DNA of 50,818 nucleotides. Source: Clostridiales bacterium (lineage in GTDB: Bacteria; Bacteroidota; Bacteroidia; Bacteroidales; Muribaculaceae). A program made the translations under genes and the position numbers. Within the stretch, counting starts at the first letter, position 1; every line of letters begins with the position of its first letter. This document shows, one piece after another, positions 2,387 through 28,421 of the stretch. Where the stretch lies: the NCBI GenBank assembly GCA_023666645.1, contig JAMPBP010000007.1, positions 1-50,818 of the forward strand, read 5' to 3'. The notes below the pieces were generated by a model. It made no database searches, was not told where the DNA came from, and saw nothing but the letters and a program-made list of their open reading frames with translations.

Positions 2387-3313
2387 ATGAACAACACATT
2401 GGCATCTTTGATAACGCTGCTTGGTTTTACAGTAGCCGCATGCAACAGCGATATATTTGTTGAACCGATACCTGATACTGTAGATTCAATAACATTGAGC
2501 GGAGACAATGGATCATGCGTTGTGAAAATCCACAAGAAAGGACTTGTGAATGTAAGTTTTGACAATAATTTTGACTCATTCAACACTCAAGTGACTGCAT
2601 TTGATAAAAATGGAGAGCGCCTTAACAATATCGATATCAAAAAAACAGCCTTGATTCAATATTCTTCCAACCGCTTTCTCATAGAATTCCGAATAAAAGG
2701 GGAAGAAGTAGAGATAACAGCTGTCGATAACACTTACGACTCGACTATCGACATAAGCGTCATACTTGAATATAGCTATACAGCCAAAAGTATTCAACTA
2801 CATATAACACCGGGGCTGCCTTTTGAAATCGAATATCTCGGATATGACCAAAATAAACAAGAAACATGGACATATACCGAGCAACATGTGGGCGCAAAAT
2901 ACACTAATAACACATCATTAACCCAGCATTATATCATCTATCCTTATAAAGAAAACTGTTCTCAGATTACATTGACTCCATCGGAAACATGGAACAATGG
3001 CATCAAGGGAAATATTGATATTCCATGTTATATCGATGGAGAATGGAATTCGTTCTATCCCGATAAAGTTGATGTTACTTTAGGACGAACCACGTCGTTC
3101 TATACATCGGCGGTTAATGTTGATGAAGAAGTAATAGTAGAGATTCCACCATACACCTCGGTAAGGGATATAGTCTCTGTAACATACGTTTATCTCAACG
3201 CCGGTTACGTTGGCCTGTTAAAGATGCCAAATTCAGGACTATTATTCGAAACACAAGGTTTCTTGTTGCTTCAGCAGCCAATTGATTATAAAATAGAACT
3301 CTTACGTCAATGA
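2387..3313 (+). CDS. Hypothetical lipoprotein
   Basis: It has a signal peptide with lipobox (LLGFTVAAC-NSD). A -7-like TAtcTTTG lies upstream at about 2217. No recognisable enzymatic motif was found. Confidence 0.55.
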   Translation: MNNTLASLITLLGFTVAACNSDIFVEPIPDTVDSITLSGDNGSCVVKIHKKGLVNVSFDNNFDSFNTQVTAFDKNGERLNNIDIKKTALIQYSSNRFLIEFRIKGEEVEITAVDNTYDSTIDISVILEYSYTAKSIQLHITPGLPFEIEYLGYDQNKQETWTYTEQHVGAKYTNNTSLTQHYIIYPYKENCSQITLTPSETWNNGIKGNIDIPCYIDGEWNSFYPDKVDVTLGRTTSFYTSAVNVDEEVIVEIPPYTSVRDIVSVTYVYLNAGYVGLLKMPNSGLLFETQGFLLLQQPIDYKIELLRQ

Positions 3314-4515
3314 ACACCCTTAAAATCAATATAATAATATTACTCTTGACGACGATTTATACTTCTGTTTCGGCACACGAAATCGATACCGTGACGACAG
3401 CGGGAGAGAATCATAAGCTTATGTGGCGCATAGGAGCGGAAGCAACTGCCGCTTATGTACCCGGTACAAATTTTTTTTTAAGAGGAAACAATAGTATTGA
3501 CAAGAGAATCAACTCAACCATTTCGGGCGATATAAAGGCTGATTTTACGTTCAATAGCTGTACCCGACAGGGGGCGCTATACAAAGGTGTCTATCAAGGA
3601 ATAGGCATAGGGATGCAATCATTTTTTGCAAACCAACTCCTTGGTACCCCGGCCACTGCCTACGTTTACCAAGGCTCACCGATATACAGTTTCACGCGCA
3701 ATCTATGGTTGGGCTACGAATGGAAATTTGGCGCCGCTATGGGTTGGAAGCATTATAAAGAAGATTCAGATGAAGAAAATGCATCGGTAAGTACTTCCAT
3801 TACTGCAATGTTGGCACTCGGATTGAAATTGCACTACAAGATGAATGACCGGTGGGAACTCTCAATGGGAATTGAATGCCGGCATTATTCCAATGGTAAC
3901 ACATCATGGCCCAATGCAGGCGTGAATACAATAGGTGCGACGGTAGGCATGGCGTATACTATCAATTTTGATAGAAATTCGGCTGCCGGTCGCGATTTGT
4001 ATCAATACGATGAGGAAAAGATTGCTCCATGGTTCTATGATATTGTCATATATGGAGCATGGCGCAAACGCTCTGTCTTAGTAGGGGATCCTATGACAGC
4101 TGAACTATGTCCTGGAAAATTTGGAGTAGTAGGCTTTCAGTTTTCTCCCATGAGGCGTTTCAACAAGTACTTTGCAGCCGGAGCATCTCTCGACTGCCAA
4201 TGGGATGAGAGTGCCGGTCTCGAGCCTTATTGGGTAGATTGGACCTACGGTGATTATATCAAATTCTATCGACCTCCTTTCCGGAAGCAAATCAACCTGG
4301 GTATGTCGGCTCATGCTGAGTTGATTATGCCAATATTTTCTGTAAATGCAGGTCTCGGCTACGACATCATAAACCCAAAGGGAGAAAAACGTTTTTACCA
4401 ATCATTGACTTTAAAAACTTTCGTAACAAAATTCTTGTTTCTGAATGTAGGTTATCGACTGGACAATTTTAAGAATCCCCAGAATCTGATGCTTGGTCTC
4501 GGTGTGAGGTTGTGA
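3310..4515 (+). CDS. Hypothetical secreted or outer-membrane protein (signal peptide, aromatic/Gly-rich, beta-barrel-like composition)
   Basis: The signal peptide is MNTLKINIIILLLTTIYTSVSA-HE. Its ATGA start overlaps the stop of the upstream lipoprotein gene, which suggests a two-gene unit. Confidence 0.5.
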   Translation: MNTLKINIIILLLTTIYTSVSAHEIDTVTTAGENHKLMWRIGAEATAAYVPGTNFFLRGNNSIDKRINSTISGDIKADFTFNSCTRQGALYKGVYQGIGIGMQSFFANQLLGTPATAYVYQGSPIYSFTRNLWLGYEWKFGAAMGWKHYKEDSDEENASVSTSITAMLALGLKLHYKMNDRWELSMGIECRHYSNGNTSWPNAGVNTIGATVGMAYTINFDRNSAAGRDLYQYDEEKIAPWFYDIVIYGAWRKRSVLVGDPMTAELCPGKFGVVGFQFSPMRRFNKYFAAGASLDCQWDESAGLEPYWVDWTYGDYIKFYRPPFRKQINLGMSAHAELIMPIFSVNAGLGYDIINPKGEKRFYQSLTLKTFVTKFLFLNVGYRLDNFKNPQNLMLGLGVRL

Positions 4516-15240: not shown

Positions 15241-16221
15241 TTAATTGTTGGCTATCTCATCAAGTGAGAAAGTTGCCGACAGCTCGCGTGGTTCCTTCTT
15301 ACCTTCAAGTAAATCAAAGAAGAAATCTCTTATCGACATCATGTCAAGAGTTGCCTGACTTCCATCGGCCTTAGTCCCGAGGTCGTATGTTTTCAGCATC
15401 TGGGGGCCAAGAGAAGCGGCTGTAATCAAGAAATGATTCTGAAACTTGTCAGTATCGAGCATATCAGCTGCCAATACCTTACCGATAACGGTGAACGAGC
15501 GCAAAGACCGTTGCATGTCTTCATTGGTGAGAGTCGATCTTATTTGGTCGGTCTCAAGATTCATCGGTATACGTCCCGATTTCTCATCTTCAGGTTTTTC
15601 GCGGAACAGAGCACCAAGATCGGCCAATGACAGGTTGAACATGCGGGTATCAGGTGTTGTATGTGGAATCTCGATTGTAAATGCAGAAGGGAGGAGCAAT
15701 TGTATTGTTCCCTCAAGGTTTACACGAGCAGTATTGAATGTGCCCACAATACAGTTATTTATCGTCGCATCGGCTGAAGCAAAAACACCACCAATCACAA
15801 CACAATTCTCAAGAATTATCTCATCGGCATATATGCTGCCGGCGACATAGGCATTGCGCAGAGTCACTTGTTTGGCATTGATATCACACCCGAAAACAGG
15901 TCGACAGTTGTTCGCGCGCGACACAATAGACCCTGCTGAACCTACCGTTTTCTTCATTATCACATCACCCCTTACATCACCCGAGATATAAAATTCGTTC
16001 TTTGCAAAAACGGAACCGCCTATCTCGATGTCTCCACCTCTTATATCAATGCGTTGTCCAAAAACGGCACCTTCCACAAGTGTGTTACCCTCTAAGACTA
16101 CATTACGGTTCAACTCGGCAATTTTTTGAGGCAGTATAGCACCCCTTACAAGGTTATCTTTGAGAATCAGCTCAGTAGTATCAAGCCTGATTTCTTTTAA
16201 TTCTTTTTTATCGTTCATCAT
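15241..16221 (-). CDS. Bactofilin-like polymer-forming beta-helix protein with a C-terminal extension; last gene of the six-gene operon
   Basis: Its N-terminal 200 aa are rich in short beta-strand repeats with G/V/I/N periodicity (VLEGNTLVEGAVFGQRIDIRGGDIEIGGSVFAKNEFYISGDVRGDVIM...). The start overlaps the upstream gene by 4 bp. Confidence 0.55.
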   Translation of the reverse strand: MMNDKKELKEIRLDTTELILKDNLVRGAILPQKIAELNRNVVLEGNTLVEGAVFGQRIDIRGGDIEIGGSVFAKNEFYISGDVRGDVIMKKTVGSAGSIVSRANNCRPVFGCDINAKQVTLRNAYVAGSIYADEIILENCVVIGGVFASADATINNCIVGTFNTARVNLEGTIQLLLPSAFTIEIPHTTPDTRMFNLSLADLGALFREKPEDEKSGRIPMNLETDQIRSTLTNEDMQRSLRSFTVIGKVLAADMLDTDKFQNHFLITAASLGPQMLKTYDLGTKADGSQATLDMMSIRDFFFDLLEGKKEPRELSATFSLDEIANN

Positions 16222-17225
16222 TGTTGAATTGTTTCATTATCAGTAAATAATCGACTTGTCAGCTCGGCAACACGGCGTTCGTGACTTGTAGACGAGCTAT
16301 TCATCGCATCGGCCACATTATCATTAAAATATTCAAGTATACGTTTATCAATCCCCACCTTGCTGTCCAGCGGCATTTTGGTTGTAAGAATATTTCTATC
16401 AACCTGAGAGAGCATTGGAGAGGTGTAAACATCGCTACTTGATGTTTGATTACAGTCAATCGATTCTACAACACAATATGGCGACAGAATAGTTTTTTCC
16501 TCACCACCGTTACGCAAACATTGGGTAAGTAGATTGTCCGTGTCATATTGAATGTTCAGGAAATGCCTGCCATCATCAATAGTTTCAGCAGCCAGATGTT
16601 TCAATCGTGAAACTGATAGGGTAGAATGCAGGTGAGCTTGCTCTGTGGCTGTAACGGTCGCAGTCCCGATTGCTTGCACTGGCGTCGAGCCTACGGAATC
16701 GGCCAGTCTTTGGAATGAGAATACCGGCTGGTCGATGGCATATATACGGTTCTCAAGCTCATGGTTAAGGTCGTCGAAAATCTTTATGTAACGGGACGAC
16801 AGACGGTTGTAATCTTCCTTCATCTGGCGCTGTTTGTCATGACATCGGTCGGCAAAACTTTTGAGTTGCAACAGCAAGGCATCGATACGTGTCGACAATT
16901 CAGTTATCTGCTGAGAGATATCCGAGCGTACAGTTTTAAAGAATCCGGAAATTATTGTTTGTCCGACTTTTCTGGAATTATCGGCTATGGATTTAACCTG
17001 AGCAGCCTCAGTGGCGACCACCGATCCCGTCAATAGGTCGACACCATGCTCCAGTGTATCTACCGAGTGGTCAAACGGGTCTGTGTCGACAGTTACATTG
17101 AAATGAACCGTCTCAGTCACTGATCCCGAATAGCTACGTGTACCTCCCGATTGAGATGCCGGATAACTCACAGAACCTGAGTAATGGACCGTGATTGATC
17201 TGGAAAAATGTCGTGTATAACTCAT
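16218..17225 (-). CDS. Hypothetical helical or coiled-coil protein, paralog of 17250-18173
   Basis: It aligns with the neighbouring paralog, for example MKEDYNRLSSRYIKIFDDLNHELENRI against MERDYQMICARYGKLFTAINRNLRQRV. It also carries a Ser/Tyr-rich N-terminal extension. Confidence 0.65.
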   Translation of the reverse strand: MSYTRHFSRSITVHYSGSVSYPASQSGGTRSYSGSVTETVHFNVTVDTDPFDHSVDTLEHGVDLLTGSVVATEAAQVKSIADNSRKVGQTIISGFFKTVRSDISQQITELSTRIDALLLQLKSFADRCHDKQRQMKEDYNRLSSRYIKIFDDLNHELENRIYAIDQPVFSFQRLADSVGSTPVQAIGTATVTATEQAHLHSTLSVSRLKHLAAETIDDGRHFLNIQYDTDNLLTQCLRNGGEEKTILSPYCVVESIDCNQTSSSDVYTSPMLSQVDRNILTTKMPLDSKVGIDKRILEYFNDNVADAMNSSSTSHERRVAELTSRLFTDNETIQQ

Positions 17226-17249
17226 TGTAAAAAGTTTAAAGAAGGTACA

Positions 17250-18173
17250 TTACAATGTAAGGAAGTTATTGGCTTCAAAAAGCTTCACTATAGTATCACG
17301 GCGACGCTGGTCAAGATCAGACGAGGCAACAAGACGGTGAAACTGATTGGACAGTTGTGGGTCTATAGTTCCATTGGCTTGCCACGATAATTCCTGCTCG
17401 CTATTGGCTACGCTCAATCTATTTTCTATCAAATTTCTTGAAGTTGCAGTCATATCGATCTTCGATACCGTTACCTGAAAATGCTTGTTGTCAGAACGGT
17501 CATAGTTGGATTCCATCATTATGACCGGTACATTAAGCTGAGATGTTTCTGTTGATGACCTACGGCTCAAAAGAACACGGTCGATCATGTATTGAAGTCG
17601 ATTGTAGCCTGAGATAAATCTCTCGATAGCTTCAATGGCATGCGAGGCACGATATTTTAGATTGGAGGTGAGCAGATGCTGCGAGGTTTTGACCGACTCG
17701 GTTTGTCCAAGTGGAATCGTTGCAGTCATGTGGCTGGCACGGTTGGAAACTTTATCGGCTTCGGTCGTGGCGAGATCAATGATGGGACGGTCGAGTTCGG
17801 TGACCCGTTGACGCAGATTGCGATTTATGGCAGTGAATAGTTTGCCATATCTTGCACAGATCATCTGGTAATCCCGTTCCATGCGCCGGCGTATGTTGGA
17901 CAACTGTTTATGTTGTTGATTCAAGCGCATAAGCTGAGCATCGACACGACTCTGCATAGCCGCCATTTTCTGAGAAATCTGGGAATGAATCATCGAATAG
18001 AATCCTTGATTCACCTTCTTACACACATGATCAGCACCATCTTGTTCAGCTTTTATGACTGCAGCCTTCATGGCAACGACAGCGGCTGTGGTGCCATTAA
18101 CATGGGAGTTGACAGCATGAACCGACTGGGCGAGTTCGGTAGTGTCGACAACACAATCAAATGAATGAGACAT
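17250..18173 (-). CDS. Hypothetical helical or coiled-coil protein, paralog of 16218-17225
   Basis: Similarity to its paralog, at about 25-30% identity by eye, runs across the whole length. Confidence 0.65.
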   Translation of the reverse strand: MSHSFDCVVDTTELAQSVHAVNSHVNGTTAAVVAMKAAVIKAEQDGADHVCKKVNQGFYSMIHSQISQKMAAMQSRVDAQLMRLNQQHKQLSNIRRRMERDYQMICARYGKLFTAINRNLRQRVTELDRPIIDLATTEADKVSNRASHMTATIPLGQTESVKTSQHLLTSNLKYRASHAIEAIERFISGYNRLQYMIDRVLLSRRSSTETSQLNVPVIMMESNYDRSDNKHFQVTVSKIDMTATSRNLIENRLSVANSEQELSWQANGTIDPQLSNQFHRLVASSDLDQRRRDTIVKLFEANNFLTL

Positions 18174-18196
18174 ATAAATAAGGTGTATTAAAAGGA

Positions 18197-20215
18197 TTAC
18201 TGTTCGTTATCGGATTTGTCACACGAAATATCGGGTAAATCGGTCTCTGATTGTGGGATTGGAGGTAGATCAGGAAGAACGGTTGACTGTGGCATTTCAG
18301 GAATATCGGAGATATTTGAAATCTCTTGCTCCATGATTTCAGGCATAGATTCAGTAGATTTTGCAACAGAAGGTTCCGCTACCTTAACATTGGCATTGAG
18401 AGAGCCAAGGGCTTCCTTCACAATAGCTGGAAGGTTCAAACCAAAGTGATCAAATGTTATATCACTGACTTGAGGTTCGGGCATTAGCTCTGAATCCTTG
18501 GCCAATTTGGGGTTAATCGAGGCAAGCGGCTTTCTTCGTTCATCAAGGGTATGTACCTCAGCACCTGCGACAGCTACAGCATTGGAATAGCCATCACGAA
18601 GTTTTGCATCAAAGTATTCGACATGACCAAATTTACTGGCTTTCAAATCAATATCTTCTTTTAGACGTTCTATGTATTCCTCAAACTCGGTTTGCACTTT
18701 TTGGAATTCCTGTCCCTGAAGCTCAAAGGCAGCCAAAGTATCGGCAGTATTGTCAACAACTTCCACAACAACCGAGTCAAGGTTACCATCTGAGAGTTTC
18801 ATCTGATTTTCTGTACGTTTCAAAGCCATAAGATTATTGTAGGCGCTGACATACTCGGTCAAGGTCTGTTGCATCAAATTTATAAGATCGGCCGATTCAG
18901 CTCTGTTGGACCTATAGAACGCATCAGTATCCTGATGCCACTTGTTGAGATAAGATATCTTCTGGTCTCTGATGGCATTATATATCTTCAGACGTTCGAT
19001 ACGATTCTCCTGCATGAGGTTCTGTACCATTGGCGCTATTATCTCCTCATACATTTGGTGGACACCGAATGGTTGAACTGTTTGTGATCCATCTTCAGCA
19101 ATCCAAGTACCGGTCAACGGATTGTATCTTACACGAGAAGATTGTCTCAGAGTAAATGGCTCATAGCCCTGAATCGAATCGGAATAATCAAATTTTTCAT
19201 TTCGTATCCGGTCTATTTCGTCGGCTTCCAGCAAGGGTGAATAATGATTGTAGGGCGCCTTAAGTATTTGATATAGCAGGCGGTTGGAGTCAAGCACTAT
19301 TTTATCGACCGAAGCTACCTTCATGCGGGTTACTGTCTGTACAGAATTGCCTATCGCATTCATAAGCATTATCAGTACCTCTTCAAACTGTGCTGTTTCA
19401 TTGGAAAGTGAATTCTTAAGATCGTTTATTTCCTGGAATTTTTTAATTCCGGTTTGGTAAGCATTATTGTTGAACACTTCAACGACTGTAGCCTTATCGG
19501 GCAATTCACTTGTCGCATATGTATCGAGTTGCGGTAAATATAGGGAATTATCAGTGACTACCGGCAGAGTCACCGATGTCGTATCGAGATCCTCCATACA
19601 GAATGTCATTGTCTTGAGAGCGCGCTCCATGGAACCGAGATAGTCGTTCTCCTTTATCTCCTGAATGGACAGAGAATAATCATCAGTATTGACAGTCTCG
19701 GCCTCATTGGAAGTCTCCACGATAGGTGCTTCCTTCGAAAGGGCATCGAGAGCATGTATCGTATCAACCAATAGGTCATTGCGGCGCGAAACGCTCATGG
19801 ATATCTTCTGTTCGGGAACAGCTCCGGTATAATCGACGATAAAACTCTTGTCTTGATATTTAATCTGTTCAGCAACAGGGACAAACGCTACACCCATACG
19901 GGTCACTTTATAGTCGCGGAATATTTCCTTATAACGTTGACGCTGTACGGCAATTTTTTCTTCTTTTCCCTCAATTTCAGTCGTTATGCGTTTCTTGAGG
20001 AAGTAATAGGGAAGATAGAACAATAGCATGTACCACCACTTGCTTGACAATTCATTGCGCAAATCAGCAATACCCTGCTCGAGGTCTCTGATATTGCTTT
20101 CAATAAGCTCTTCTTCTTCAACTATACGCTCAGCTGCCTGTCGATAATAGTTAAAGAGGATTTTTGCCTGATCATGCCATATATTGGCCGAATCAGGGAA
20201 AATTTTTCCATCCAT
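18197..20215 (-). CDS. Large coiled-coil protein (672 aa) with an N-proximal aromatic hydrophobic segment and an acidic Pro-rich C-terminal tail
   Basis: It has heptad-rich regions (EEEELIESNIRDLEQGIADLRNEL), the segment WWYMLLFYLPYYFL, and the tail PEIMEQEISNISDIPEMPQSTVLPDLPPIPQSETDLPD. No P-loop is present. Confidence 0.65.
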   Translation of the reverse strand: MDGKIFPDSANIWHDQAKILFNYYRQAAERIVEEEELIESNIRDLEQGIADLRNELSSKWWYMLLFYLPYYFLKKRITTEIEGKEEKIAVQRQRYKEIFRDYKVTRMGVAFVPVAEQIKYQDKSFIVDYTGAVPEQKISMSVSRRNDLLVDTIHALDALSKEAPIVETSNEAETVNTDDYSLSIQEIKENDYLGSMERALKTMTFCMEDLDTTSVTLPVVTDNSLYLPQLDTYATSELPDKATVVEVFNNNAYQTGIKKFQEINDLKNSLSNETAQFEEVLIMLMNAIGNSVQTVTRMKVASVDKIVLDSNRLLYQILKAPYNHYSPLLEADEIDRIRNEKFDYSDSIQGYEPFTLRQSSRVRYNPLTGTWIAEDGSQTVQPFGVHQMYEEIIAPMVQNLMQENRIERLKIYNAIRDQKISYLNKWHQDTDAFYRSNRAESADLINLMQQTLTEYVSAYNNLMALKRTENQMKLSDGNLDSVVVEVVDNTADTLAAFELQGQEFQKVQTEFEEYIERLKEDIDLKASKFGHVEYFDAKLRDGYSNAVAVAGAEVHTLDERRKPLASINPKLAKDSELMPEPQVSDITFDHFGLNLPAIVKEALGSLNANVKVAEPSVAKSTESMPEIMEQEISNISDIPEMPQSTVLPDLPPIPQSETDLPDISCDKSDNEQ

Positions 20216-20342
20216 AATTGTTAATAATGTTTAGTCCTAATACCGAATTGCAGCTACAAGGTCTGATTCAAAATACAATGCACCTTATGCTAACATTAGG
20301 CAAAGGGTGGTTAAAAATGAAATGAATAATATTAGATTGTAT

Positions 20343-21044
20343 TTAATACCGCTTTCTTGCTGTATATGTCAATTCAAGAGCATTCATAAGTTTTTCTATA
20401 CGCTCTTTGTTCATATCATAATCATAGAATGCATGAGTCATATCTCGGCAGTAGTCGACTATTCTACAGTCAAGCTCGACTGCTTCGGGAATTGATGATG
20501 GTGATATATAGCGGGAGTCTGCTTCAATACTCTTCAAGCGATTGATAACATTCAGAGGGACGCTCTTTATCTGAGCTTCCATAATGACATCACTCAAAGC
20601 CCGTTTAATTGATTGCTTGCCTGCCTTTTGTACATTTTCTTTCTCATAGACGGCTCGGGTCTTTTCGTTGACCCCAAGCACGGTAAAAGCAAGAATCAAT
20701 AGAAGAAATATAAATAGACATTGTGTAAACAGCTGCCAATTAAACTCTATGCCAGCACTTATGGCTATAAATATGAACCCGATGGAAAGCAATGAATAAA
20801 TAAATGATCCTTGCCATCTGATGCCGAGCGCCGCCACCTGTTTCTGTGATTTGTCATCAAGATTGATGGGTTCCCGGAACAATGTAGCCACCCATAACCA
20901 ATAGTTTAACGATACTACGGTTAGGTCGAGCCACATCACCGCTGGATTAACAAAAAGAGTAACAGGCAACAATAAAACAAATATAGCCACTAACAGCAAC
21001 TGCCCAAATATTGCGATCGCAATGCCTATTGGTTTGATATTCAT
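20343..21044 (-). CDS. Integral membrane protein (about 4 TM helices plus a roughly 90-aa cytoplasmic C-terminal domain)
   Basis: There are hydrophobic stretches at about residues 5-28, 35-57, 82-106 and 110-135. It lies 20 bp downstream of the SPFH gene. Confidence 0.6.
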   Translation of the reverse strand: MNIKPIGIAIAIFGQLLLVAIFVLLLPVTLFVNPAVMWLDLTVVSLNYWLWVATLFREPINLDDKSQKQVAALGIRWQGSFIYSLLSIGFIFIAISAGIEFNWQLFTQCLFIFLLLILAFTVLGVNEKTRAVYEKENVQKAGKQSIKRALSDVIMEAQIKSVPLNVINRLKSIEADSRYISPSSIPEAVELDCRIVDYCRDMTHAFYDYDMNKERIEKLMNALELTYTARKRY

Positions 21045-21064
21045 GGTATTTAGATATAATTTAG

Positions 21065-22354
21065 TTACGTACGTCTATTACCACATTTTGGACAGAAGGC
21101 CGCAGTGGGAGGAAGAGGTGAGCCGCAACGGCTACATGTATTGCTCGAAATGATTACAGGCTGTCCACAACCTGGGCAAAAAGTAGAGCCTGCCGGTAAA
21201 GTCATGTTGCAGTGGGGACACTTATTGGCTGCTCCTGCAAGTTGTGTGCCGCAATTCACACATCGATGGGCCTCCTCTGGATTGTCACTGCCACAATTAG
21301 GGCAAGGGTGGTATTTATTGCCACAGTTAGGGCAAAATGCCGAGGTCGACGGGAATTTCTTTGAACAGGATGAACAATATACCATGCGTGCCGGCTGAGC
21401 CGATGGAGTGGCACCTTGCTGGAAATTCTGCGGAGCCGACTGGCCACCACCAAAAGTCGGTTGACTAAACTGCGGATTCATCATGCTACCATTGGCTGCT
21501 CCACCCGTCATATTGTTCATCATGGATATAGCAAGAAGACCACCCAGCAAATTTCCGTTTCCACCTGACCCTACGCCTCCTACCTGATTGATAGCTTGCG
21601 AGGCTGTACCAAACATCTGTTCCTGTTGCCAGGTATGTCCTGTAATTGACATTGAACTCTGCGTAGCTATGGCTTCTTTAACCTTGAGCCCCTCTGGAGT
21701 TGAAGTATCGATATCGATATCTGAAACGTAGAATTTGGGCACATCGAGGCCTATATTATTGCAAAAGTCATTAAGTTGAGCTTTAAGTGATTGGGACAAC
21801 GGGTCAAGAAACGCAGATATCTGTTTAAAACCAACACTATTCTGCATCATAAATTGAACCACTGCCGATTTTACCTTTGTTGTAAATTCTCCCTTGAATT
21901 GCTCTGTAAGATCACGCTGGGTAAATATATTCTTTGTACCCACCATCTTTATTACAAACTTCTCGGGGTCAGTGACCTTGACTCCATATTGTCCATTGAG
22001 TTCCAAAGGCAGCTGCGTTTGGTAATCCGAGTCATGGACCGACAATTTTCCTACATGCCAAGGTATATTGAATGTTTCGATGATATTCACAAACCATATT
22101 TGGGCGAAAAATGGATTCTTCCCTCCAAATGGAATTCCGAAAAAAGACCGCAATATAGGCAGATTTTCTGTATCGAGAGTATGCTTTCCAGGCCCAAATT
22201 TAGCAAGCAGCTGACCTTTTGAGAACATCAGGGCAACTTGCGACTCGTTAACTATTAACTGGGTATAAGTTGACAGATTATCATGCGGGAACTTATAAGC
22301 ATACACTACCTCAGGACCTTGCGGATTCCAAGAGACACAATCAATAATAGCCAT
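21065..22354 (-). CDS. SPFH/Band-7-like domain protein (COG4260 / YdjI-like Band_7_1 type) fused to a Gly/Gln/Asn-rich linker and four C-terminal zinc ribbons
   Basis: The N-terminus CVSWNPQGPEVVYAYKFP...LIVNESQVALMFSKGQLLAKFGPGKHTLDTENLPIL matches the YdjI-type pattern. The C-terminus has eight CxxC pairs (CSSC/CPNC, CPNC/CVNC, CPHC/CPGC, CSRC/CPKC). Confidence 0.8.
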   Translation of the reverse strand: MAIIDCVSWNPQGPEVVYAYKFPHDNLSTYTQLIVNESQVALMFSKGQLLAKFGPGKHTLDTENLPILRSFFGIPFGGKNPFFAQIWFVNIIETFNIPWHVGKLSVHDSDYQTQLPLELNGQYGVKVTDPEKFVIKMVGTKNIFTQRDLTEQFKGEFTTKVKSAVVQFMMQNSVGFKQISAFLDPLSQSLKAQLNDFCNNIGLDVPKFYVSDIDIDTSTPEGLKVKEAIATQSSMSITGHTWQQEQMFGTASQAINQVGGVGSGGNGNLLGGLLAISMMNNMTGGAANGSMMNPQFSQPTFGGGQSAPQNFQQGATPSAQPARMVYCSSCSKKFPSTSAFCPNCGNKYHPCPNCGSDNPEEAHRCVNCGTQLAGAANKCPHCNMTLPAGSTFCPGCGQPVIISSNTCSRCGSPLPPTAAFCPKCGNRRT

Positions 22355-22397: not shown

Positions 22398-22431
22398 CAA
22401 ATATAACAATATTTTCTACAAATAAAGCAAA
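22398..22431 (-). promoter_or_regulatory. Candidate Bacteroidetes promoter for the six-gene operon
   Basis: The minus strand carries TTTG (22431-22428), a 22-nt spacer, then TAtaTTTG (22405-22398). This gives a 5' UTR of about 40 nt to the ATG at 22354. The spacer is slightly longer than the 19-21 nt consensus. Confidence 0.3.
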
Positions 22432-22659
22432 ATGGCATTAAAAATATTGTATTGACGATAATTTTAATACTTTTACTATTAAATCCTTCAAAACACGTAT
22501 CTCACGTTGAGTTGCCATATTATTTTTTGCACGAATCAGACAAGGGACAATCACAACAACCTCTTGACTTACTCTTTCGACACTTTATAAAGCTGTATAT
22601 AGTTCCCATAACTGCAATCAGTAATATTGCGATCACAATTATCCACTGAATTGCTATAC

Positions 22660-23196
22660 TCATAACAACTCGTAAATGAGTGCTTTCAATCGATCATACT
22701 CACTTTCAAAATTGGGTGTGAGTATACCTTTGCCTTTCACGGCATCTATTTCATCACCACTCCAGAATCGTGCATCGTCAATTTCATCTCTATTATATAC
22801 AGGTGAGAAATCATCAGAATCAACAATCATACAATAAGCATGTACCAATTCATGTTCACGGTCACTTCTGAAATCATAGGTGACGAGATGAAACTTTTCG
22901 TTTATCTCAATGCCGAGTTCCTCTCGGGTTTCCCTTGCCAGGGCATTCTCAACCGACTCGTTATAATCCACGTGCCCTCCCACAGCAGTGTCCCATCGTC
23001 CAGGTTGTATATCCTTGTTCATTGATCTTTTCTGCAGAAATATACGTCCGTCACAGTCGACTATGTGCAGGTGTACAACCGGGTGGAGCAACATACTGCC
23101 CGAATGGCATTCCCCACGTGTTGCCTTTCCAATAACCGTTCCATTAAGATTGACAATAGGGAATAGCTCACTGTTATATTGCTTCATTGTATCCAA
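22660..23196 (-). CDS. NUDIX hydrolase
   Basis: The Nudix box is GGHVDYNESVENALARETREELGIEI. Length is 178 aa. Confidence 0.85.
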   Translation of the reverse strand: MDTMKQYNSELFPIVNLNGTVIGKATRGECHSGSMLLHPVVHLHIVDCDGRIFLQKRSMNKDIQPGRWDTAVGGHVDYNESVENALARETREELGIEINEKFHLVTYDFRSDREHELVHAYCMIVDSDDFSPVYNRDEIDDARFWSGDEIDAVKGKGILTPNFESEYDRLKALIYELL

Positions 23197-25252: not shown

Positions 25253-25666
25253 TTATATTTTCAATGGAGCGGAAAACACTCCATGCACAGTGTGAAATAT
25301 TATAGAATCACCTTCATTGAACTTGAGAGTGCGTTTCAGATCCACTTCTACAGGTACCGCACCATCATCTTCCCATTGGAAATAACGCTCAAAGTCAACA
25401 CCGTCTATATCGGTAGCTTTATATACATGCCGGTCAATTAAAGCGGTAACAGAATCTACGCGTGACGATGTGTGAGGAATACTCATAAGTGTGCAACTCA
25501 CCCTCGACACCCCATCGCTGTTATTGTTGTCTACTTTTTCAACAACGACTTTCATATGATGACGTGGTTGTGACGGCTTTTCAGCCGGTGAACACACCAT
25601 ACGAGGAGTTACTGCTACCGAGGTAAGGGAGATAGCAACAGACAGCATCAATGTGATGAACTTCAT
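25253..25666 (-). CDS. Hypothetical secreted protein
   Basis: It has a signal peptide (MKFITLMLSVAISLTSVAV) and overlaps the mazG stop by 4 bp. Confidence 0.45.
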   Translation of the reverse strand: MKFITLMLSVAISLTSVAVTPRMVCSPAEKPSQPRHHMKVVVEKVDNNNSDGVSRVSCTLMSIPHTSSRVDSVTALIDRHVYKATDIDGVDFERYFQWEDDGAVPVEVDLKRTLKFNEGDSIIFHTVHGVFSAPLKI

Positions 25667-26456: not shown

Positions 26457-28421
26457 TTACTTATTTTTGAAATTTTCTATTCCGGTGGAAAGCCATTCCA
26501 CAAATTCAGTAAGATTCTCATTGTAGCTGCGCGACGGAGCAAGCATCTCACCATTATCGCCATTGAGGATTACGTAATATGGCTGGGTATTTGCGCCAAA
26601 TTTATGACGCTGCAGATAACTCCATTTGTCACCGACCGTACGTAGCACCAATTCCCTGTCATTCTCGGTAACAGTGATAGGCTGGGGTAGATTCTGTTTA
26701 TCATCGACCATAAGTTTTATCAGGACGAAGTTTTCCTTTATCATGTCGCTCACTACCTCAGTATCGAACACAGCACCTTCCATCTTACGGCAATTCACAC
26801 AACCATAACCAGAGAAATCGACAAGTACCGGACGGTTATTCTTGGCTGCATAAGCCATGCCCTGTTCATAGTCGTCAAATTCTTCAAATTGACCACCGGT
26901 ATAGAGATTGAAATCCTGTGTATACAAAGGAGGAACAAATGCACTCACCCCCTTGAGAGGAGCGCCCCACAATCCGGGAATAAGATATACGGCAAAACTG
27001 AGTGAAATCAGCGATAGGAAAAAACGACCCACCGACAGACGTTCAACCGGTTCATCATGGCTGAAACGAATCTTGCCAAGCAGATAAATACCCAACAGGA
27101 AAAATATGACAATCCATAACGAAACAAACACTTCGCGGTCGAGGATTCCCCAACCATAAGCAAGATCGGCTACTGAAAGGAATTTGAGCGAGAGTGCAAG
27201 TTCAAGGAAACCAAGAACAACCTTGACCGAATTGAGCCAGCCACCTGAGCGAGGCATCTCTTTAAGCCATGTTGGAAAGATTGCGAAGAGAGTAAAAGGC
27301 AAAGCCAGGGCCACCGCAAAACCAGTCATTCCTATAGCTGGTCCCGAGATGTTGCCAAGAGAAGCGGCTTCTACAAGCAGTGTTCCGATTATAGGACCGG
27401 TGCATGAGAATGATACGAGAGCCAACGTAAAGGCCATGAAGAAAATACTGATCATACCTGTTGTTTTCTCCACTTTATTATCAACCCCGTTGCTCCAACG
27501 CGAAGGCAAGGTTATATTGAAAGCTCCGAAGAAAGAGATTGCAAAAACTATAAGCAAGAGGAAGAATATGAGATTGAAGACTGCATTGGTCGACAATTCA
27601 TTGAGTTTGCTGGCTCCGAAAATTACTGTAATAAGCAATCCAAGCAAAAGATAGATTACAACTATTGAGCAACCATAGATGAGAGCGTCACTTATTGCTT
27701 TGCGCTTGGGTGTGCCTTTTTTCAAGAAGAAACTTACAGTCATGGGTATCAGAGGCCATACACAAGGTGTGAGTAGAGCCAGAAGTCCACCACCAAATCC
27801 CCATATGAAGATTAGCCACCAGGGTGATGAGGATATGGGTTCGGCGGTATTTTCGTTTACTACGGGTGCCCACAAATCACTCGCTGATATATTGTTTGTA
27901 ACAGTGGAAGATACCTCTTTGTGCTCAGTCGCGACTTCAGTTGGTTCTGTTTCCGGCTGTATCGCCCCACCATTGATATTGAGTTTAAACTCATCTCTTG
28001 AAGGTGCTATACACGAGCTTCCGTTGCATGCCTGATAGGATATCGATACATTGATATTATTTGAGGTTCCATCAACGACTTTAAAATCTTGACGGAAAGC
28101 TACATCTTTATCCCAATAGCCGAGCTCCAGATGAAAAATCATATCTACCTCAACTGTTGGAGCTACATTGGGTTGAAGCTCACCCACCAACTTGATTCCG
28201 GGTGTCGATGTAAAATCAATGACTGTAGGATTTGGCCCTCCATCAGGAAGTTGAAGGGCATAGAGATGCCAGCCGTTTTCAACAGTAGCCTTTAGAGTGA
28301 CATGTCCTGTATCGTCACTGTCCATAGTGGTGGTGGCGCTCCATTTAATCGGTTCGACCATCTGAGCCGACATGACAAAAAAAGCCATGACACTCATCAA
28401 GAATGCTGTAAATCGTTTCAT
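26457..28421 (-). CDS. dsbD: DsbD-family protein-disulfide reductase (thiol:disulfide interchange protein)
   Basis: It has a signal peptide, a central membrane domain with a Cys pair (LTPCVWPLIP), and a C-terminal thioredoxin domain with YGCVNC. Confidence 0.85.
   Translation of the reverse strand: MKRFTAFLMSVMAFFVMSAQMVEPIKWSATTTMDSDDTGHVTLKATVENGWHLYALQLPDGGPNPTVIDFTSTPGIKLVGELQPNVAPTVEVDMIFHLELGYWDKDVAFRQDFKVVDGTSNNINVSISYQACNGSSCIAPSRDEFKLNINGGAIQPETEPTEVATEHKEVSSTVTNNISASDLWAPVVNENTAEPISSSPWWLIFIWGFGGGLLALLTPCVWPLIPMTVSFFLKKGTPKRKAISDALIYGCSIVVIYLLLGLLITVIFGASKLNELSTNAVFNLIFFLLLIVFAISFFGAFNITLPSRWSNGVDNKVEKTTGMISIFFMAFTLALVSFSCTGPIIGTLLVEAASLGNISGPAIGMTGFAVALALPFTLFAIFPTWLKEMPRSGGWLNSVKVVLGFLELALSLKFLSVADLAYGWGILDREVFVSLWIVIFFLLGIYLLGKIRFSHDEPVERLSVGRFFLSLISLSFAVYLIPGLWGAPLKGVSAFVPPLYTQDFNLYTGGQFEEFDDYEQGMAYAAKNNRPVLVDFSGYGCVNCRKMEGAVFDTEVVSDMIKENFVLIKLMVDDKQNLPQPITVTENDRELVLRTVGDKWSYLQRHKFGANTQPYYVILNGDNGEMLAPSRSYNENLTEFVEWLSTGIENFKNK

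What the first reader, a model, noticed from the sequence alone, without database searches (positions are those of the whole stretch)
21065..22354. Natural fusion of a YdjI-type SPFH domain with a four-zinc-ribbon array via a Gly/Gln/Asn-rich low-complexity linker
The N-terminal 270 aa match the Band_7_1 pattern (CVSWNP..., LIVNESQVALMFSKGQLLAKFGPGKHTLDTENLPIL). Residues about 270-335 form a prion-like G/Q/N/M-rich linker. The last 100 aa contain eight CxxC pairs forming four zinc ribbons. In Firmicutes the SPFH (YdjI) and double-zinc-ribbon (YdjG) functions are separate neighbouring genes. A Rosetta-stone fusion here supports their functional linkage and defines domain boundaries.
Basis: partly seen in the sequence, partly recalled or inferred. 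Interest (0 to 1): 0.6.

Follow-up and report, generated by a model that had tools for sequence, protein, structure and literature searches.

The report
YdjI-type SPFH protein, four zinc ribbons
This gene encodes an ordinary member of a known family of membrane-scaffold (SPFH) proteins that normally end in zinc-ribbon modules, so it is not a telling gene fusion; the more interesting point is that it leads a conserved six-gene cluster of otherwise unknown proteins in gut Bacteroidales.

Summary
A 429-aa ORF on the minus strand (21065-22354) has three parts:
- a Band_7_1 SPFH domain (aa 20-236, E=7e-32);
- a nearly charge-free G/Q/N/M-rich segment;
- four CxxC-x10-CxxC zinc ribbons, with all 16 Cys invariant in 120 homologs.

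The "Rosetta-stone fusion of YdjI with YdjG" reading does not hold. Bacillus YdjI/SamI itself has the same layout with one ribbon: I fetched it and confirmed this, and two papers state it. Of 128 diverse full-length family representatives, 68 carry 1-5 C-terminal ribbons. Others carry SHOCT or GYF at the same position. The ribbon array is therefore a family-typical, swappable C-terminal adaptor, here present in four copies.

The "linker" is not passive. It holds a family-wide G[YF]x[WY]QQE motif followed by a Gly/Met-rich hydrophobic run.

The gene is also the first of a six-gene cluster that stays intact in five different genomic contexts across Bacteroidales: a 4-TM protein, a ~700-aa protein with an acidic tail, two paralogous long coiled-coil proteins and a weakly bactofilin-like protein. 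None of the five has a Pfam family, and no PspA is present. Best reading: a soluble SPFH scaffold docked through its basic ribbon array to these partners. That docking step is inferred.

Novelty of the finding itself is low.

The parts
21065..22354 (-). Gene A: 429-aa SPFH-ZnR protein (YdjI/SamI-type), with no predicted TM segment
   Evidence: ORF; Pfam Band_7_1 plus DZR/Zn_Ribbon_1; no hydrophobic 19-mer above threshold. It is 100% identical to an NCBI protein named 'SPFH domain-containing protein' (P0001).
21647..22297 (-). SPFH / Band_7_1 domain (aa 20-236)
   Evidence: PF13421 E=7.3e-32. BLASTP to Bacillus YdjI gives 20% identity over aa 3-266, E=2e-14. Mean conservation is 0.69 in 120 homologs.
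21611..21646 (-). Conserved post-SPFH motif ITGHTWQQEQMF (aa 237-248); family-wide pattern G[YF]x[WY]QQE
   Evidence: Conserved in orthologs. The motif was found beyond residue 180 in 57 of 128 diverse representatives with a strict regex.
21389..21610 (-). Charge-poor G/Q/N/M/A/S-rich low-complexity segment (aa 249-322)
   Evidence: Composition. One charged residue in aa 241-322, P about 9e-6. It is the least conserved part of the protein (0.43).
21476..21562 (-). Hydrophobic Gly/Leu/Met core of the segment (aa 265-293, GNGNLLGGLLAISMMNNMTGGAANGSMMN)
   Evidence: More conserved (0.65 over aa 268-283) than the rest of the linker. A comparable Gly/Met/Ala/Leu/Val run of at least 12 aa occurs in 43 of 57 family representatives that carry the motif, against 3 of 128 in a control region.
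21074..21382 (-). Array of four zinc ribbons (aa 325-427). R1 = 21323-21376, R2 = 21251-21304, R3 = 21167-21220, R4 = 21083-21136. Net charge +7.
   Evidence: CxxC positions; DZR in 3 stretches and Zn_Ribbon_1 in 4 stretches. All 16 Cys are invariant and all 120 close homologs have exactly 4 ribbons; conservation 0.66.
22398..22405 (-). TATATTTG, a match to the Bacteroidetes -7 promoter box TAnnTTTG, 43 nt upstream of the ATG
   Evidence: Sequence scan; 0.29 matches expected per shuffle, so this is weak. A similar box lies upstream in L001 and L003 but not in L006 or L008. The consensus itself is recalled from memory.
20343..21044 (-). Gene B: 233-aa protein with about four TM segments and a helical C-terminal half; no known family
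   Evidence: Hydropathy. No hits in Pfam, NCBIfam, PADLOC or PHROGs. Always the second gene of the cluster; 23-29% identity among orthologs.
18197..20215 (-). Gene C: 672-aa protein. It has an N-terminal helix, a short hydrophobic segment (aa ~59-75), a conserved region of about 530 aa, and an acidic tail (net -11).
   Evidence: Alignments A3 and A4. About 2,017 homologs, all 'hypothetical' with no Pfam. The AF2 model is confident only for aa ~12-99 (overall pLDDT 51). Tail charge.
17250..18173 (-). Gene D: 307-aa long coiled-coil protein with a small alpha/beta C-terminal domain
16218..17225 (-). Gene E: 335-aa paralog of D
   Evidence: BLASTP D vs E: 27% identity over 255 aa, E=9e-25.
15241..16221 (-). 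Gene F: 326-aa protein with a weak bactofilin-like beta-helix signal in the N-terminal half and a highly conserved C-terminal domain
   Evidence: Pfam Bactofilin is below threshold but recurs in 4 of 5 orthologs (best E=4.8e-4). The only PDB profile hit is BacA 2n3d, E=0.024. Alignment A2. Its start overlaps gene E by 4 nt.

Best explanation
The gene encodes a soluble, YdjI/SamI-type SPFH scaffold protein. Its family-typical C-terminal zinc-ribbon adaptor is present in four tandem copies.

Shown:
- It is a Band_7_1 protein with no TM anchor.
- It has the same three-part layout as Bacillus YdjI (SPFH, Gly/Met/Gln/Asn-rich segment, Cys4 ribbon).
- The ribbon array is under selection as strong as the SPFH domain.
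- Across the family the C-terminal position is filled interchangeably by 1-5 ribbons, SHOCT or GYF.
- The gene is the first of a six-gene, tightly spaced, co-oriented cluster that is kept intact in five different genomic contexts in Bacteroidales.

Inferred:
- The SPFH domain oligomerises under the cytoplasmic membrane, as SPFH proteins in general do.
- The uncharged flexible segment acts as a tether. Its conserved Gly/Leu/Met core contributes to self-association or membrane contact.
- The four basic Zn(Cys)4 ribbons act as a multivalent protein-docking module. They attach the scaffold to the cluster's membrane proteins (4-TM protein B; protein C with its acidic tail).
- Through that attachment the scaffold organises the coiled-coil proteins D and E and the bactofilin-like protein F. 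This would be a functional analogue of SamG/SamH-dependent recruitment of SamI and PspA in Bacillus, but without PspA.
For: Identity and layout. The same layout in Bacillus YdjI; PMC8581546; bioRxiv 10.64898/2026.02.06.704340; PMC11237479.

Selection on the ribbons: 16 of 16 Cys invariant, exactly 4 ribbons in 120 of 120 homologs, and region conservation of 0.66 against 0.69 for SPFH and 0.43 for the linker.

Swappable C-terminal modules: ribbon counts 0/1/2/3/4/5 = 60/7/32/18/8/3 among 128 representatives. SHOCT and GYF_2 verified by Pfam. Literature: PMC3581485 and PMC2034487.

Family-wide Gly/Met hydrophobic run after the G[YF]x[WY]QQE motif.

Operon: same six genes in the same order, with intergenic gaps mostly 2-41 nt and different flanks, in the window, L001/L002, L003/L004, L006/L007 and L008.

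Charge complementarity: ribbon array +7, protein C tail -11, and strongly poly-acidic tails in orthologs.

Dependence of YdjI membrane localisation on operon-encoded membrane proteins in Bacillus: PMC8581546.
Against: No experiment or complex prediction links the ribbons to any partner, and the zinc-finger role has not been tested even in Bacillus.

No partner is homologous to PspA, YdjG or YdjH by Pfam or NCBIfam, so the analogy rests on architecture only.

The topology of protein C is unresolved. Its hydrophobic segment is short, and if it is a true single TM pass the large domain could be periplasmic and out of reach of protein A.

The protein C structure model failed (pLDDT 51). The bactofilin assignment for F is below threshold. 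Zinc binding is inferred from sequence only; CPxCG knuckles can also bind iron.
Confidence: 0.6

Rival explanations
1. One reading: a Rosetta-stone fusion in which the double-zinc-ribbon function of YdjG has been fused onto YdjI. This would support a YdjG-YdjI functional link and define the domain boundaries.
For: YdjG does begin with zinc ribbons: two ZnRs according to PMC11237479, and the ydjG forward primer encodes MIISYKCPNC. The window protein has more ribbons than YdjI.
Against: YdjI itself carries a C-terminal ribbon and a low-complexity segment. Ribbon arrays of 1-5 copies are a common family feature. Neither the NTF2-like domain nor the TM segment of YdjG is present. The window ribbons align to YdjI's own ribbon (E=5e-4 to 0.016). 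I could not fetch a YdjG sequence, so a direct ribbon-to-ribbon comparison was not made.
Confidence: 0.05
2. The Gly/Leu/Met-rich hydrophobic core of the 'linker' is the real membrane-contact or self-assembly element (glycine-zipper-like). The ribbons would serve mainly to oligomerise or cap the SPFH assembly rather than to dock onto operon partners.
For: A Gly/Met/Ala/Leu/Val run of 15-43 aa follows the conserved G[YF]x[WY]QQE motif in 43 of 57 representatives, whatever C-terminal module follows. The core is more conserved than its surroundings. The SHOCT paper lists Band_7_1 among the oligomeric proteins that SHOCT is most often attached to, and SHOCT occupies the same position as the ribbons (PMC3581485).
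Against: In this protein the strictly hydrophobic stretch (LLGGLLAISMM) is only about 11-14 residues, too short for a TM helix. In Bacillus, YdjI needs YdjG and YdjH to reach the membrane. The strict conservation of exactly four ribbons together with a fixed set of five partners fits partner docking better.
Confidence: 0.17
3. The four Cys4 sites form a redox- or metal-sensing switch. Oxidation or zinc loss would unfold the array and change assembly of the SPFH scaffold, coupling oxidative or metal stress to a membrane response in an anaerobe.
For: There are sixteen invariant cysteines in a small basic domain. Cys4 zinc sites are known redox switches in other proteins (general knowledge, for example Hsp33 and RsrA). 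The host lineage is an anaerobic gut Bacteroidales.
Against: There is no direct evidence. The same position holds SHOCT or GYF in relatives, which points to a generic adaptor role rather than sensing. No redox genes belong to the conserved cluster; the DsbD-like gene at 26457-28421 is not conserved next to the cluster in the other loci.
Confidence: 0.08
4. The ribbon array binds nucleic acid, making the protein a membrane-tethered regulator.
For: Zinc ribbons can bind nucleic acids (PMC3581485). A preprint assumes a DNA-binding role for the YdjG ribbon (10.1101/2021.02.15.431232). The array has a net charge of +7.
Against: No DNA-binding domain or regulator is part of the cluster. The ribbons are minimal CxxC-x10-CxxC knuckles with few conserved basic residues between them. 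The equivalent position is taken by the peptide- or protein-binding modules GYF and SHOCT.
Confidence: 0.05
5. The six-gene cluster is an anti-phage defence or conflict system carried on a mobile island.
For: The flanks differ in every genome examined. In L008 the cluster sits next to PDDEXK_4 and type I restriction-modification genes. Distant SPFH-ZnR relatives occur in a few phage records.
Against: No PADLOC hit was found for any of the six proteins apart from one chance-level hit. No enzymatic effector domain is detectable. Protein C has no plasmid match. The cluster's GC content equals that of the window (0.433). No integrase or transposase is adjacent in the window. The other four contexts are housekeeping or efflux genes.
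Confidence: 0.05

Closest known systems
Bacillus subtilis YdjI / SamI (last gene of the pspA-ydjGHI = pspA-samGHI operon)
   Same: Both have a Band_7_1 SPFH domain and no membrane anchor. Both have a Gly/Met/Gln/Asn-rich low-complexity segment and a C-terminal CPxCG-type Cys4 ribbon. Both are encoded in an operon with membrane proteins.
   Different: This protein has four ribbons rather than one and is only about 20% identical in the SPFH domain. It is the first gene of its operon, not the last. The partners are different: no PspA (ESCRT-III), no TPM-domain YdjH and no ZnR-NTF2-TM YdjG were detected. Five unclassified proteins take their place.
Band_7_1 proteins with other C-terminal modules (Band_7_1-SHOCT, Band_7_1-GYF)
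   Same: They share the SPFH core, the G[YF]x[WY]QQE motif and the Gly/Met-rich hydrophobic run, with a small C-terminal module after a flexible segment (PMC3581485, PMC2034487).
   Different: The module here is a Zn-ribbon array rather than SHOCT or GYF.
Archaeal 'Meth_adaptin' ESCRT-neighbourhood SPFH protein (Makarova et al. 2024, PMC10936438)
   Same: It is an SPFH protein that additionally contains zinc-ribbon domains and is encoded with membrane-remodelling components.
   Different: The archaeal protein has a coiled-coil region and sits with Vps4/ESCRT and adaptin-like genes. No such genes are present here. No sequence comparison was made.
B. subtilis YdjG / SamG
   Same: It contains zinc ribbons of the same general CxxC type.
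   Different: In YdjG the ribbons are N-terminal and are followed by an NTF2-like domain and a TM segment. It has no SPFH domain. None of the YdjG body is present in the window protein.
Canonical membrane-anchored SPFH proteins (flotillins FloA/FloT, HflK/C, stomatin/QmcA-NfeD)
   Same: They belong to the same SPFH superfamily (weak Band_7 PF01145 hit, E=2e-8) and are presumed to oligomerise at membranes.
   Different: The window protein has no N-terminal TM or hairpin anchor, no long flotillin or coiled-coil wall region, and no NfeD or FtsH partner in the cluster. phmmer finds no SPFH match among PDB chains; all hits fall in the ribbon region.

Membership tests
Pfam Band_7_1 (PF13421) SPFH family | Profile match above the curated gathering score | tested here: met
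   111.1 bits against a 24-bit cut-off, E=7.3e-32, profile positions 4-210 of 211.
YdjI/SamI-type SPFH proteins | No intrinsic membrane anchor (soluble SPFH protein) | tested here: met
   No 19-residue window with Kyte-Doolittle mean above 1.6. The same is stated for YdjI in PMC8581546.
YdjI/SamI-type SPFH proteins | [quoted passage not shown] | tested here: met
   aa 249-322 is G/Q/N/M-rich with 1 charged residue in aa 241-322, followed by ribbons. The same order is seen in the B. tequilensis YdjI that I fetched.
YdjI/SamI-type SPFH proteins | Encoded in an operon with pspA, ydjG (ZnR-NTF2-TM) and ydjH (TPM domain) | tested here: not met
   None of the five co-oriented neighbours hits PspA_IM30, Snf7, TPM_phosphatase or any other family. 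So this protein shares YdjI's architecture and distant sequence similarity but is not part of a Psp operon.
YdjI/SamI-type SPFH proteins | Membrane recruitment depends on operon-encoded membrane proteins; required for focus formation of a polymer-forming partner | not testable with these tools
   This needs localisation and interaction experiments. Only the presence of membrane proteins (B, possibly C) and coiled-coil or beta-helix candidates (D, E, F) in the operon is shown.
Zinc ribbon / DZR (PF12773, PF13240) | Paired CxxC knuckles with profile matches above the gathering score | tested here: met
   DZR 87 bits (cut-off 27.3) and Zn_Ribbon_1 75 bits (cut-off 25). There are four CxxC-x10-CxxC units and all Cys are invariant.
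Zinc ribbon / DZR (PF12773, PF13240) | Binds one Zn2+ per Cys4 unit | not testable with these tools
   This requires metal analysis of purified protein. Iron (rubredoxin-like) binding cannot be excluded from sequence.
Rosetta-stone fusion of YdjI with YdjG | The two fused parts occur as separate proteins elsewhere, and the part attributed to YdjG is absent from stand-alone YdjI | tested here: not met
   Stand-alone Bacillus YdjI already ends in a zinc ribbon preceded by a low-complexity segment (PMC8581546). The YdjG-specific NTF2-like domain and TM segment are absent from the window protein.
Flotillin / HflKC / stomatin-type SPFH cage proteins | N-terminal TM or hairpin anchor plus a long coiled-coil/flotillin region C-terminal to the SPFH domain | tested here: not met
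   No TM segment. The SPFH domain is followed by a Gly-rich segment rather than a coiled coil, and there is no Flot or NfeD hit.
Prion-like (Q/N-rich) domain | Long uncharged Q/N-rich low-complexity sequence without conserved motifs | tested here: inconclusive
   The composition fits: Q+N are 20 of 81 residues and there is almost no charge. Gly is the commonest residue, however, and the segment contains conserved motifs (GGLLGGLLAxxMM, MMQPQ[FY]NQPTFGG) shared by orthologs. No prion predictor was available.
Bactofilin (PF04519), for neighbour F only | Profile match above the gathering score | tested here: not met
   15.3 bits against a 27.9-bit cut-off in the window protein. The best ortholog reaches E=4.8e-4, and 4 of 5 orthologs give a weak hit. 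PDB BacA scores E=0.024. This is a resemblance only.

The most novel reading that the evidence does not exclude
The six-gene cluster A-F is a previously undescribed, PspA-independent membrane-scaffold or cytoskeletal system specific to Bacteroidales. It comprises the SPFH-4xZnR protein, a 4-TM protein, a ~700-aa protein with an acidic tail, two paralogous ~120-residue-helix coiled-coil proteins, and a bactofilin-like protein. In this reading the four-ribbon array of the SPFH protein is the multivalent hub that assembles the other five, and the family-wide Gly/Met-rich segment of Band_7_1 proteins is a functional membrane-contact or self-assembly element rather than a linker.
Probability: 0.3. 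Interest if true: 0.55.

Novelty: new member of a known kind. Interest (0 to 1): 0.27.

Why it matters
As framed, the finding adds little. The SPFH + low-complexity + zinc-ribbon layout is the published architecture of YdjI/SamI and is common in the Band_7_1 family, so it cannot serve as Rosetta-stone evidence.

Three by-products could be useful.

1. The ribbon number is fixed at four and is as conserved as the SPFH domain in this lineage. That argues the ribbons are functional, and no one appears to have tested the zinc finger even in Bacillus.
2. The supposed linker carries a family-wide motif plus a Gly/Met-rich hydrophobic run. This deserves attention in the Bacillus model.
3. The gene marks a conserved operon of five protein families with no annotation. 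The operon is widespread in gut Bacteroidales (Muribaculaceae, Barnesiella, Prevotellaceae, Tenuifilaceae), and PspA-type partners are not detected in it. If it is a membrane-maintenance system, it would be a new handle on envelope biology in abundant gut commensals.

Tried and rejected
- Plus-strand reading of the interval: full of stop codons. The gene is on the minus strand.
- PADLOC and PHROGs scans of all six cluster proteins: nothing meaningful.
- NCBIfam: only chance-level hits for A-E.
- C_672: the PDB profile search hit only its acidic tail. The AF2 model, built from a 27-sequence alignment, had pLDDT 51. I judged it unusable and did not fold-search it. The LemA-like hit (E=0.01) was not substantiated.
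- The genome-contig scan with the published ydjI primer returned B. tequilensis with only 421 nt upstream. YdjG and most of YdjH could therefore not be retrieved for direct comparison.
- I looked for a conserved small ORF upstream of gene A. The small ORFs in L002, L006 and L008 are unrelated to each other.
- The sigma-70 promoter and terminator scan found fewer sites than shuffled controls and is not appropriate for Bacteroidetes.
- Plasmid search for protein C: no match. Phage search for protein A: only 20-26% identical relatives.
Full report

Yes. The ORF listing finds a 429-aa ATG-initiated ORF at exactly 21065..22354, but on the minus strand. The plus-strand translation of the interval is full of stops.

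Pfam places Band_7_1 (PF13421) on aa 20-236 with E=7.3e-32. It places DZR, Zn_Ribbon_1 and Zn_ribbon_3 on aa ~324-427 with E down to 8.9e-25.

Eight CxxC motifs sit at aa 327, 341, 351, 365, 379, 393, 407 and 421. This gives four regular CxxC-x10-CxxC ribbons.

Between the two parts lies a G/Q/N/A/S/M-rich stretch. Only one residue in aa 241-322 is charged, against 16% charged residues elsewhere in the protein (P about 9e-6).

The SPFH profile ends near aa 236, and the low-complexity part is aa 249-322.

**2. Is it a singular "natural fusion"?**

No. The protein is 100% identical to an NCBI entry already named "SPFH domain-containing protein" (P0001). The 120 best of 2,577 homologs (55-79% identical) all carry the same Pfam set. 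Where a source names the organism, it is Muribaculaceae, Paramuribaculum or Barnesiella.

In those 120 homologs, all have exactly four ribbons and all 16 ribbon cysteines are invariant. The ribbon region is about as conserved as the SPFH domain (0.66 against 0.69 mean identity to the reference), while the linker is at 0.43.

**3. The Rosetta-stone premise fails**

Ravi et al. describe the SPFH protein of the ydj operon (printed there as "YdjL") as band-7 plus a C-terminal ZnR. They describe YdjG as two ZnRs plus an NTF2-like domain plus a TM segment (PMC11237479).

I checked this directly. The published ydjI forward primer retrieved the gene from Bacillus tequilensis (L005). The 323-aa product has Band_7_1 at aa 25-231 (E=4.6e-42) and then MTDGMASGKMSGGGTASDMAGMMMGMNMANQMMNQMNQNQQAQSSGSQSSGSGSKPN. 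It ends in [23 protein letters not shown].

BLASTP to the window protein gives 20% identity over aa 3-266 (E=2e-14). The Bacillus ribbon aligns to ribbons 2-3, 3 and 4 of the window protein.

So the three-part design is the family prototype. What differs here is the copy number of the ribbon. Nothing of the YdjG body (NTF2-like domain, TM segment) is present.

**4. How unusual are four ribbons?**

I ran a full HMMER search of 1.84 billion cluster representatives with the SPFH domain alone (aa 1-245). It found 2,486 clusters at E<=0.001.

Among the 128 full-length proteins in the top 150, the ribbon counts were as follows:

| Ribbons | 0 | 1 | 2 | 3 | 4 | 5 |
|---|---|---|---|---|---|---|
| Proteins | 60 | 7 | 32 | 18 | 8 | 3 |

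I scanned eight of the zero-ribbon representatives with Pfam. Four end in SHOCT and one in GYF_2; three have no recognised C-terminal module. A five-ribbon example was also confirmed.

This matches older notes. SHOCT is most often attached to PF13421 (PMC3581485), and an SPFH/Band 7+GYF architecture exists (PMC2034487). [quoted passage not shown]

From memory, and not checked here, COG4260 is titled [quoted passage not shown]. JGI's name for homolog P0043 agrees with the first part of that title.

The ribbon array is therefore one of several interchangeable small C-terminal modules of this family. That argues for an adaptor or oligomerisation role.

**5. The "linker" is more than a linker**

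Orthologs at about 60% identity share three motifs: ITGHTWQQEQMF, GGLLGGLLAxxMM and MMQPQ[FY]NQPTFGG.

Across the diverse representatives, a strict regex found the motif G[YF]x[WY]QQE beyond residue 180 in 57 of 128 proteins. In 43 of those 57 it is followed within 70 residues by a run of at least 12 residues (usually 15-43) made almost only of G, A, M, L, I, V or F. Examples are GMGLGMGFGIGGALG and MGIGMGFGMGAGIGAAF. A control region inside the SPFH domain showed such a run in only 3 of 128 proteins. The run occurs whether or not ribbons follow.

Bacillus YdjI has the Met-rich version.

I read this as a conserved, glycine-zipper-like self-association or membrane-contact element. That function is inferred, not shown.

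**6. Genomic context**

Gene A is followed on the same strand by five more genes:

| Gene | Coordinates | Length |
|---|---|---|
| B | 20343-21044 | 233 aa |
| C | 18197-20215 | 672 aa |
| D | 17250-18173 | 307 aa |
| E | 16218-17225 | 335 aa |
| F | 15241-16221 | 326 aa |

The gaps between successive genes are 20, 127, 23, 24 and -4 nt.

The same six genes, in the same order and tightly spaced, follow the SPFH-ZnR gene in four other settings:
- Barnesiella sp. An55 (L001/L002);
- another lineage (L003/L004);
- a Tenuifilaceae MAG (L006/L007);
- a JGI metagenome contig (L008).

The flanking genes differ every time. Identities to the window proteins are 59-62% for A, 23-29% for B, 57-59% for C, 42-46% for D, 39-47% for E and 54-58% for F.

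None of B-F has a Pfam, NCBIfam, PADLOC or PHROG family. About 550 homologs of D and about 2,017 of C are all "hypothetical".

The cluster's GC content equals that of the window (0.433). The surrounding genes are housekeeping: NUDIX, topoisomerase III, MazG, DsbD, UvrD and DUF1015.

**7. What the partners look like**

- **B** has about four TM segments and a helical C-terminal half.
- **C** has an N-terminal helix, a short hydrophobic segment, a conserved region of about 530 aa and an acidic tail. The tail is net -11 here and strongly poly-acidic in orthologs. Its AF2 model was poor (pLDDT 51), so I did not use it beyond aa 12-99.
- **F** gives a sub-threshold but recurrent Bactofilin signal: 4 of 5 orthologs, best E=4.8e-4. 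BacA (2n3d) is the only PDB hit for the F-family profile, at E=0.024.

**8. Mechanism**

*Shown:* a soluble Band_7_1 SPFH protein with YdjI's layout, a strongly constrained basic (+7) four-ribbon array, an uncharged tether with a conserved hydrophobic core, and a fixed six-gene operon that includes membrane and filament-like proteins.

*Established elsewhere:* SPFH domains oligomerise at membranes. YdjI/SamI needs the operon-encoded membrane proteins YdjG and YdjH to reach the membrane, and it recruits the polymer-forming PspA (PMC8581546).

*Inferred:* protein A forms a sub-membrane oligomer. Its ribbons act as a multivalent docking surface for B and/or C; the acidic tail of C is an obvious electrostatic partner. 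Through this docking, D, E and F are organised into a membrane-associated assembly that plays a PspA-like maintenance role without PspA.

I put about 0.6 on this overall statement. Identity and architecture are near certain. Ribbon-mediated docking to the operon partners is perhaps 0.35-0.4 on its own.

The rivals are:
- the Gly/Met core, not the ribbons, is the key contact element and the ribbons oligomerise the scaffold (0.17);
- the Cys4 sites form a redox or metal switch (0.08);
- the ribbons bind nucleic acid (0.05);
- the cluster is a defence island (0.05);
- the original Rosetta-stone reading (0.05).

**9. Comparison and novelty**

The protein is a member of Pfam Band_7_1 and shares every architectural feature of YdjI/SamI. 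It fails the operon criterion, because no pspA, ydjG or ydjH equivalents are detectable. I therefore file it as YdjI-type in architecture but not as part of a Psp system.

It is not a flotillin-, HflKC- or stomatin-type SPFH protein: it has no anchor, no coiled-coil wall and no NfeD partner. No SPFH relative among PDB chains is detectable by phmmer; all hits fall in the ribbon region.

The finding as stated is a new member of a known kind, and its interpretive claim is not supported. The conserved six-gene operon and the conserved Gly/Met segment are the parts that might repay further work.

**10. Limits**

- I could not retrieve YdjG or full-length YdjH for direct comparison.
- The afdb50 library was unavailable.
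- The taxonomic breadth of the operon outside Bacteroidales was not surveyed.
- Zinc binding, topology, co-transcription and all interactions remain untested.

Noticed in passing
window 15241-22354 (minus strand); L001 10001-17206; L003 10001-17191; L006 5728-12955; L008 5831-12944: A six-gene cluster is conserved in order and spacing in five different genomic contexts. It comprises the SPFH-4xZnR protein, a 4-TM protein, a ~700-aa protein with an acidic tail, two paralogous long coiled-coil proteins and a weakly bactofilin-like protein. The five partner families have no Pfam, NCBIfam, PADLOC or PHROG assignment.
   Followed up: partly
window 21476-21646 (aa 237-293 of the SPFH protein); representatives P0241-P0390: A G[YF]x[WY]QQE motif followed by a Gly/Met/Ala/Leu/Val-rich hydrophobic run (15-43 aa, glycine-zipper-like) is a family-wide feature of Band_7_1 proteins. 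It occurs whether the C-terminal module is a ZnR array, SHOCT or GYF. I did not find it described in the papers I read.
   Followed up: partly
whole window; gene at 3310-4515: NCBI labels the source contig 'MAG: Clostridiales bacterium' (P0001, P0121, P0391). Where a source names the organism, the listed relatives of three cluster proteins are Bacteroidales (mostly Muribaculaceae; also Barnesiella, Prevotellaceae and Tenuifilaceae). The window also encodes a PagL-like lipid A deacylase, a DUF4923 lipocalin and a DsbD. The bin's taxonomic label is probably wrong.
   Followed up: no
P0241 (representative, 418 aa, 65% identical in the SPFH domain): This close relative has no CxxC motif at all, yet it is the same length as the others. 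Its tail (…LLPPLRRSLQSLPPLRYGQRPECQ…) reads like a frameshifted translation of a ribbon array, so it is probably an assembly error or a pseudogene.
   Followed up: no
window 22520-22663 (minus strand), between the NUDIX gene and the SPFH gene: An unannotated 47-aa ORF, MSIAIQWIIVIAILLIAVMGTIYSFIKCRKSKSRGCCDCPLSDSCKK, has one TM helix and a Cys-rich tail. From memory it resembles FeoB-associated Cys-rich membrane proteins. NCBIfam gave no significant hit, and it is not conserved upstream of the cluster in the other loci.
   Followed up: partly
L008 13092-20915; L006 4855-5253 and 13220-13711: In L008 the cluster is immediately followed by PDDEXK_4, a type I R-M specificity subunit, GIY-YIG, an HTH protein and a type I restriction subunit, which looks like a defence island. 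In L006/L007 the cluster is bracketed by two SiaC-like (PF09345) genes.
   Followed up: no
phage records MT837562.1, MT838602.1, MT838724.1, MT835670.1, OR846590.1 (hits H1-H5): Distant relatives (20-26% identity) of the SPFH-ZnR protein are encoded in a few phage records, including Enterococcus phage Efs 1-1-1. All five records lack annotation.
   Followed up: no
window 25253-25666 (minus strand): A 137-aa ORF between the topoisomerase III and MazG genes starts with a hydrophobic, signal-peptide-like N-terminus and has no Pfam hit.
   Followed up: no
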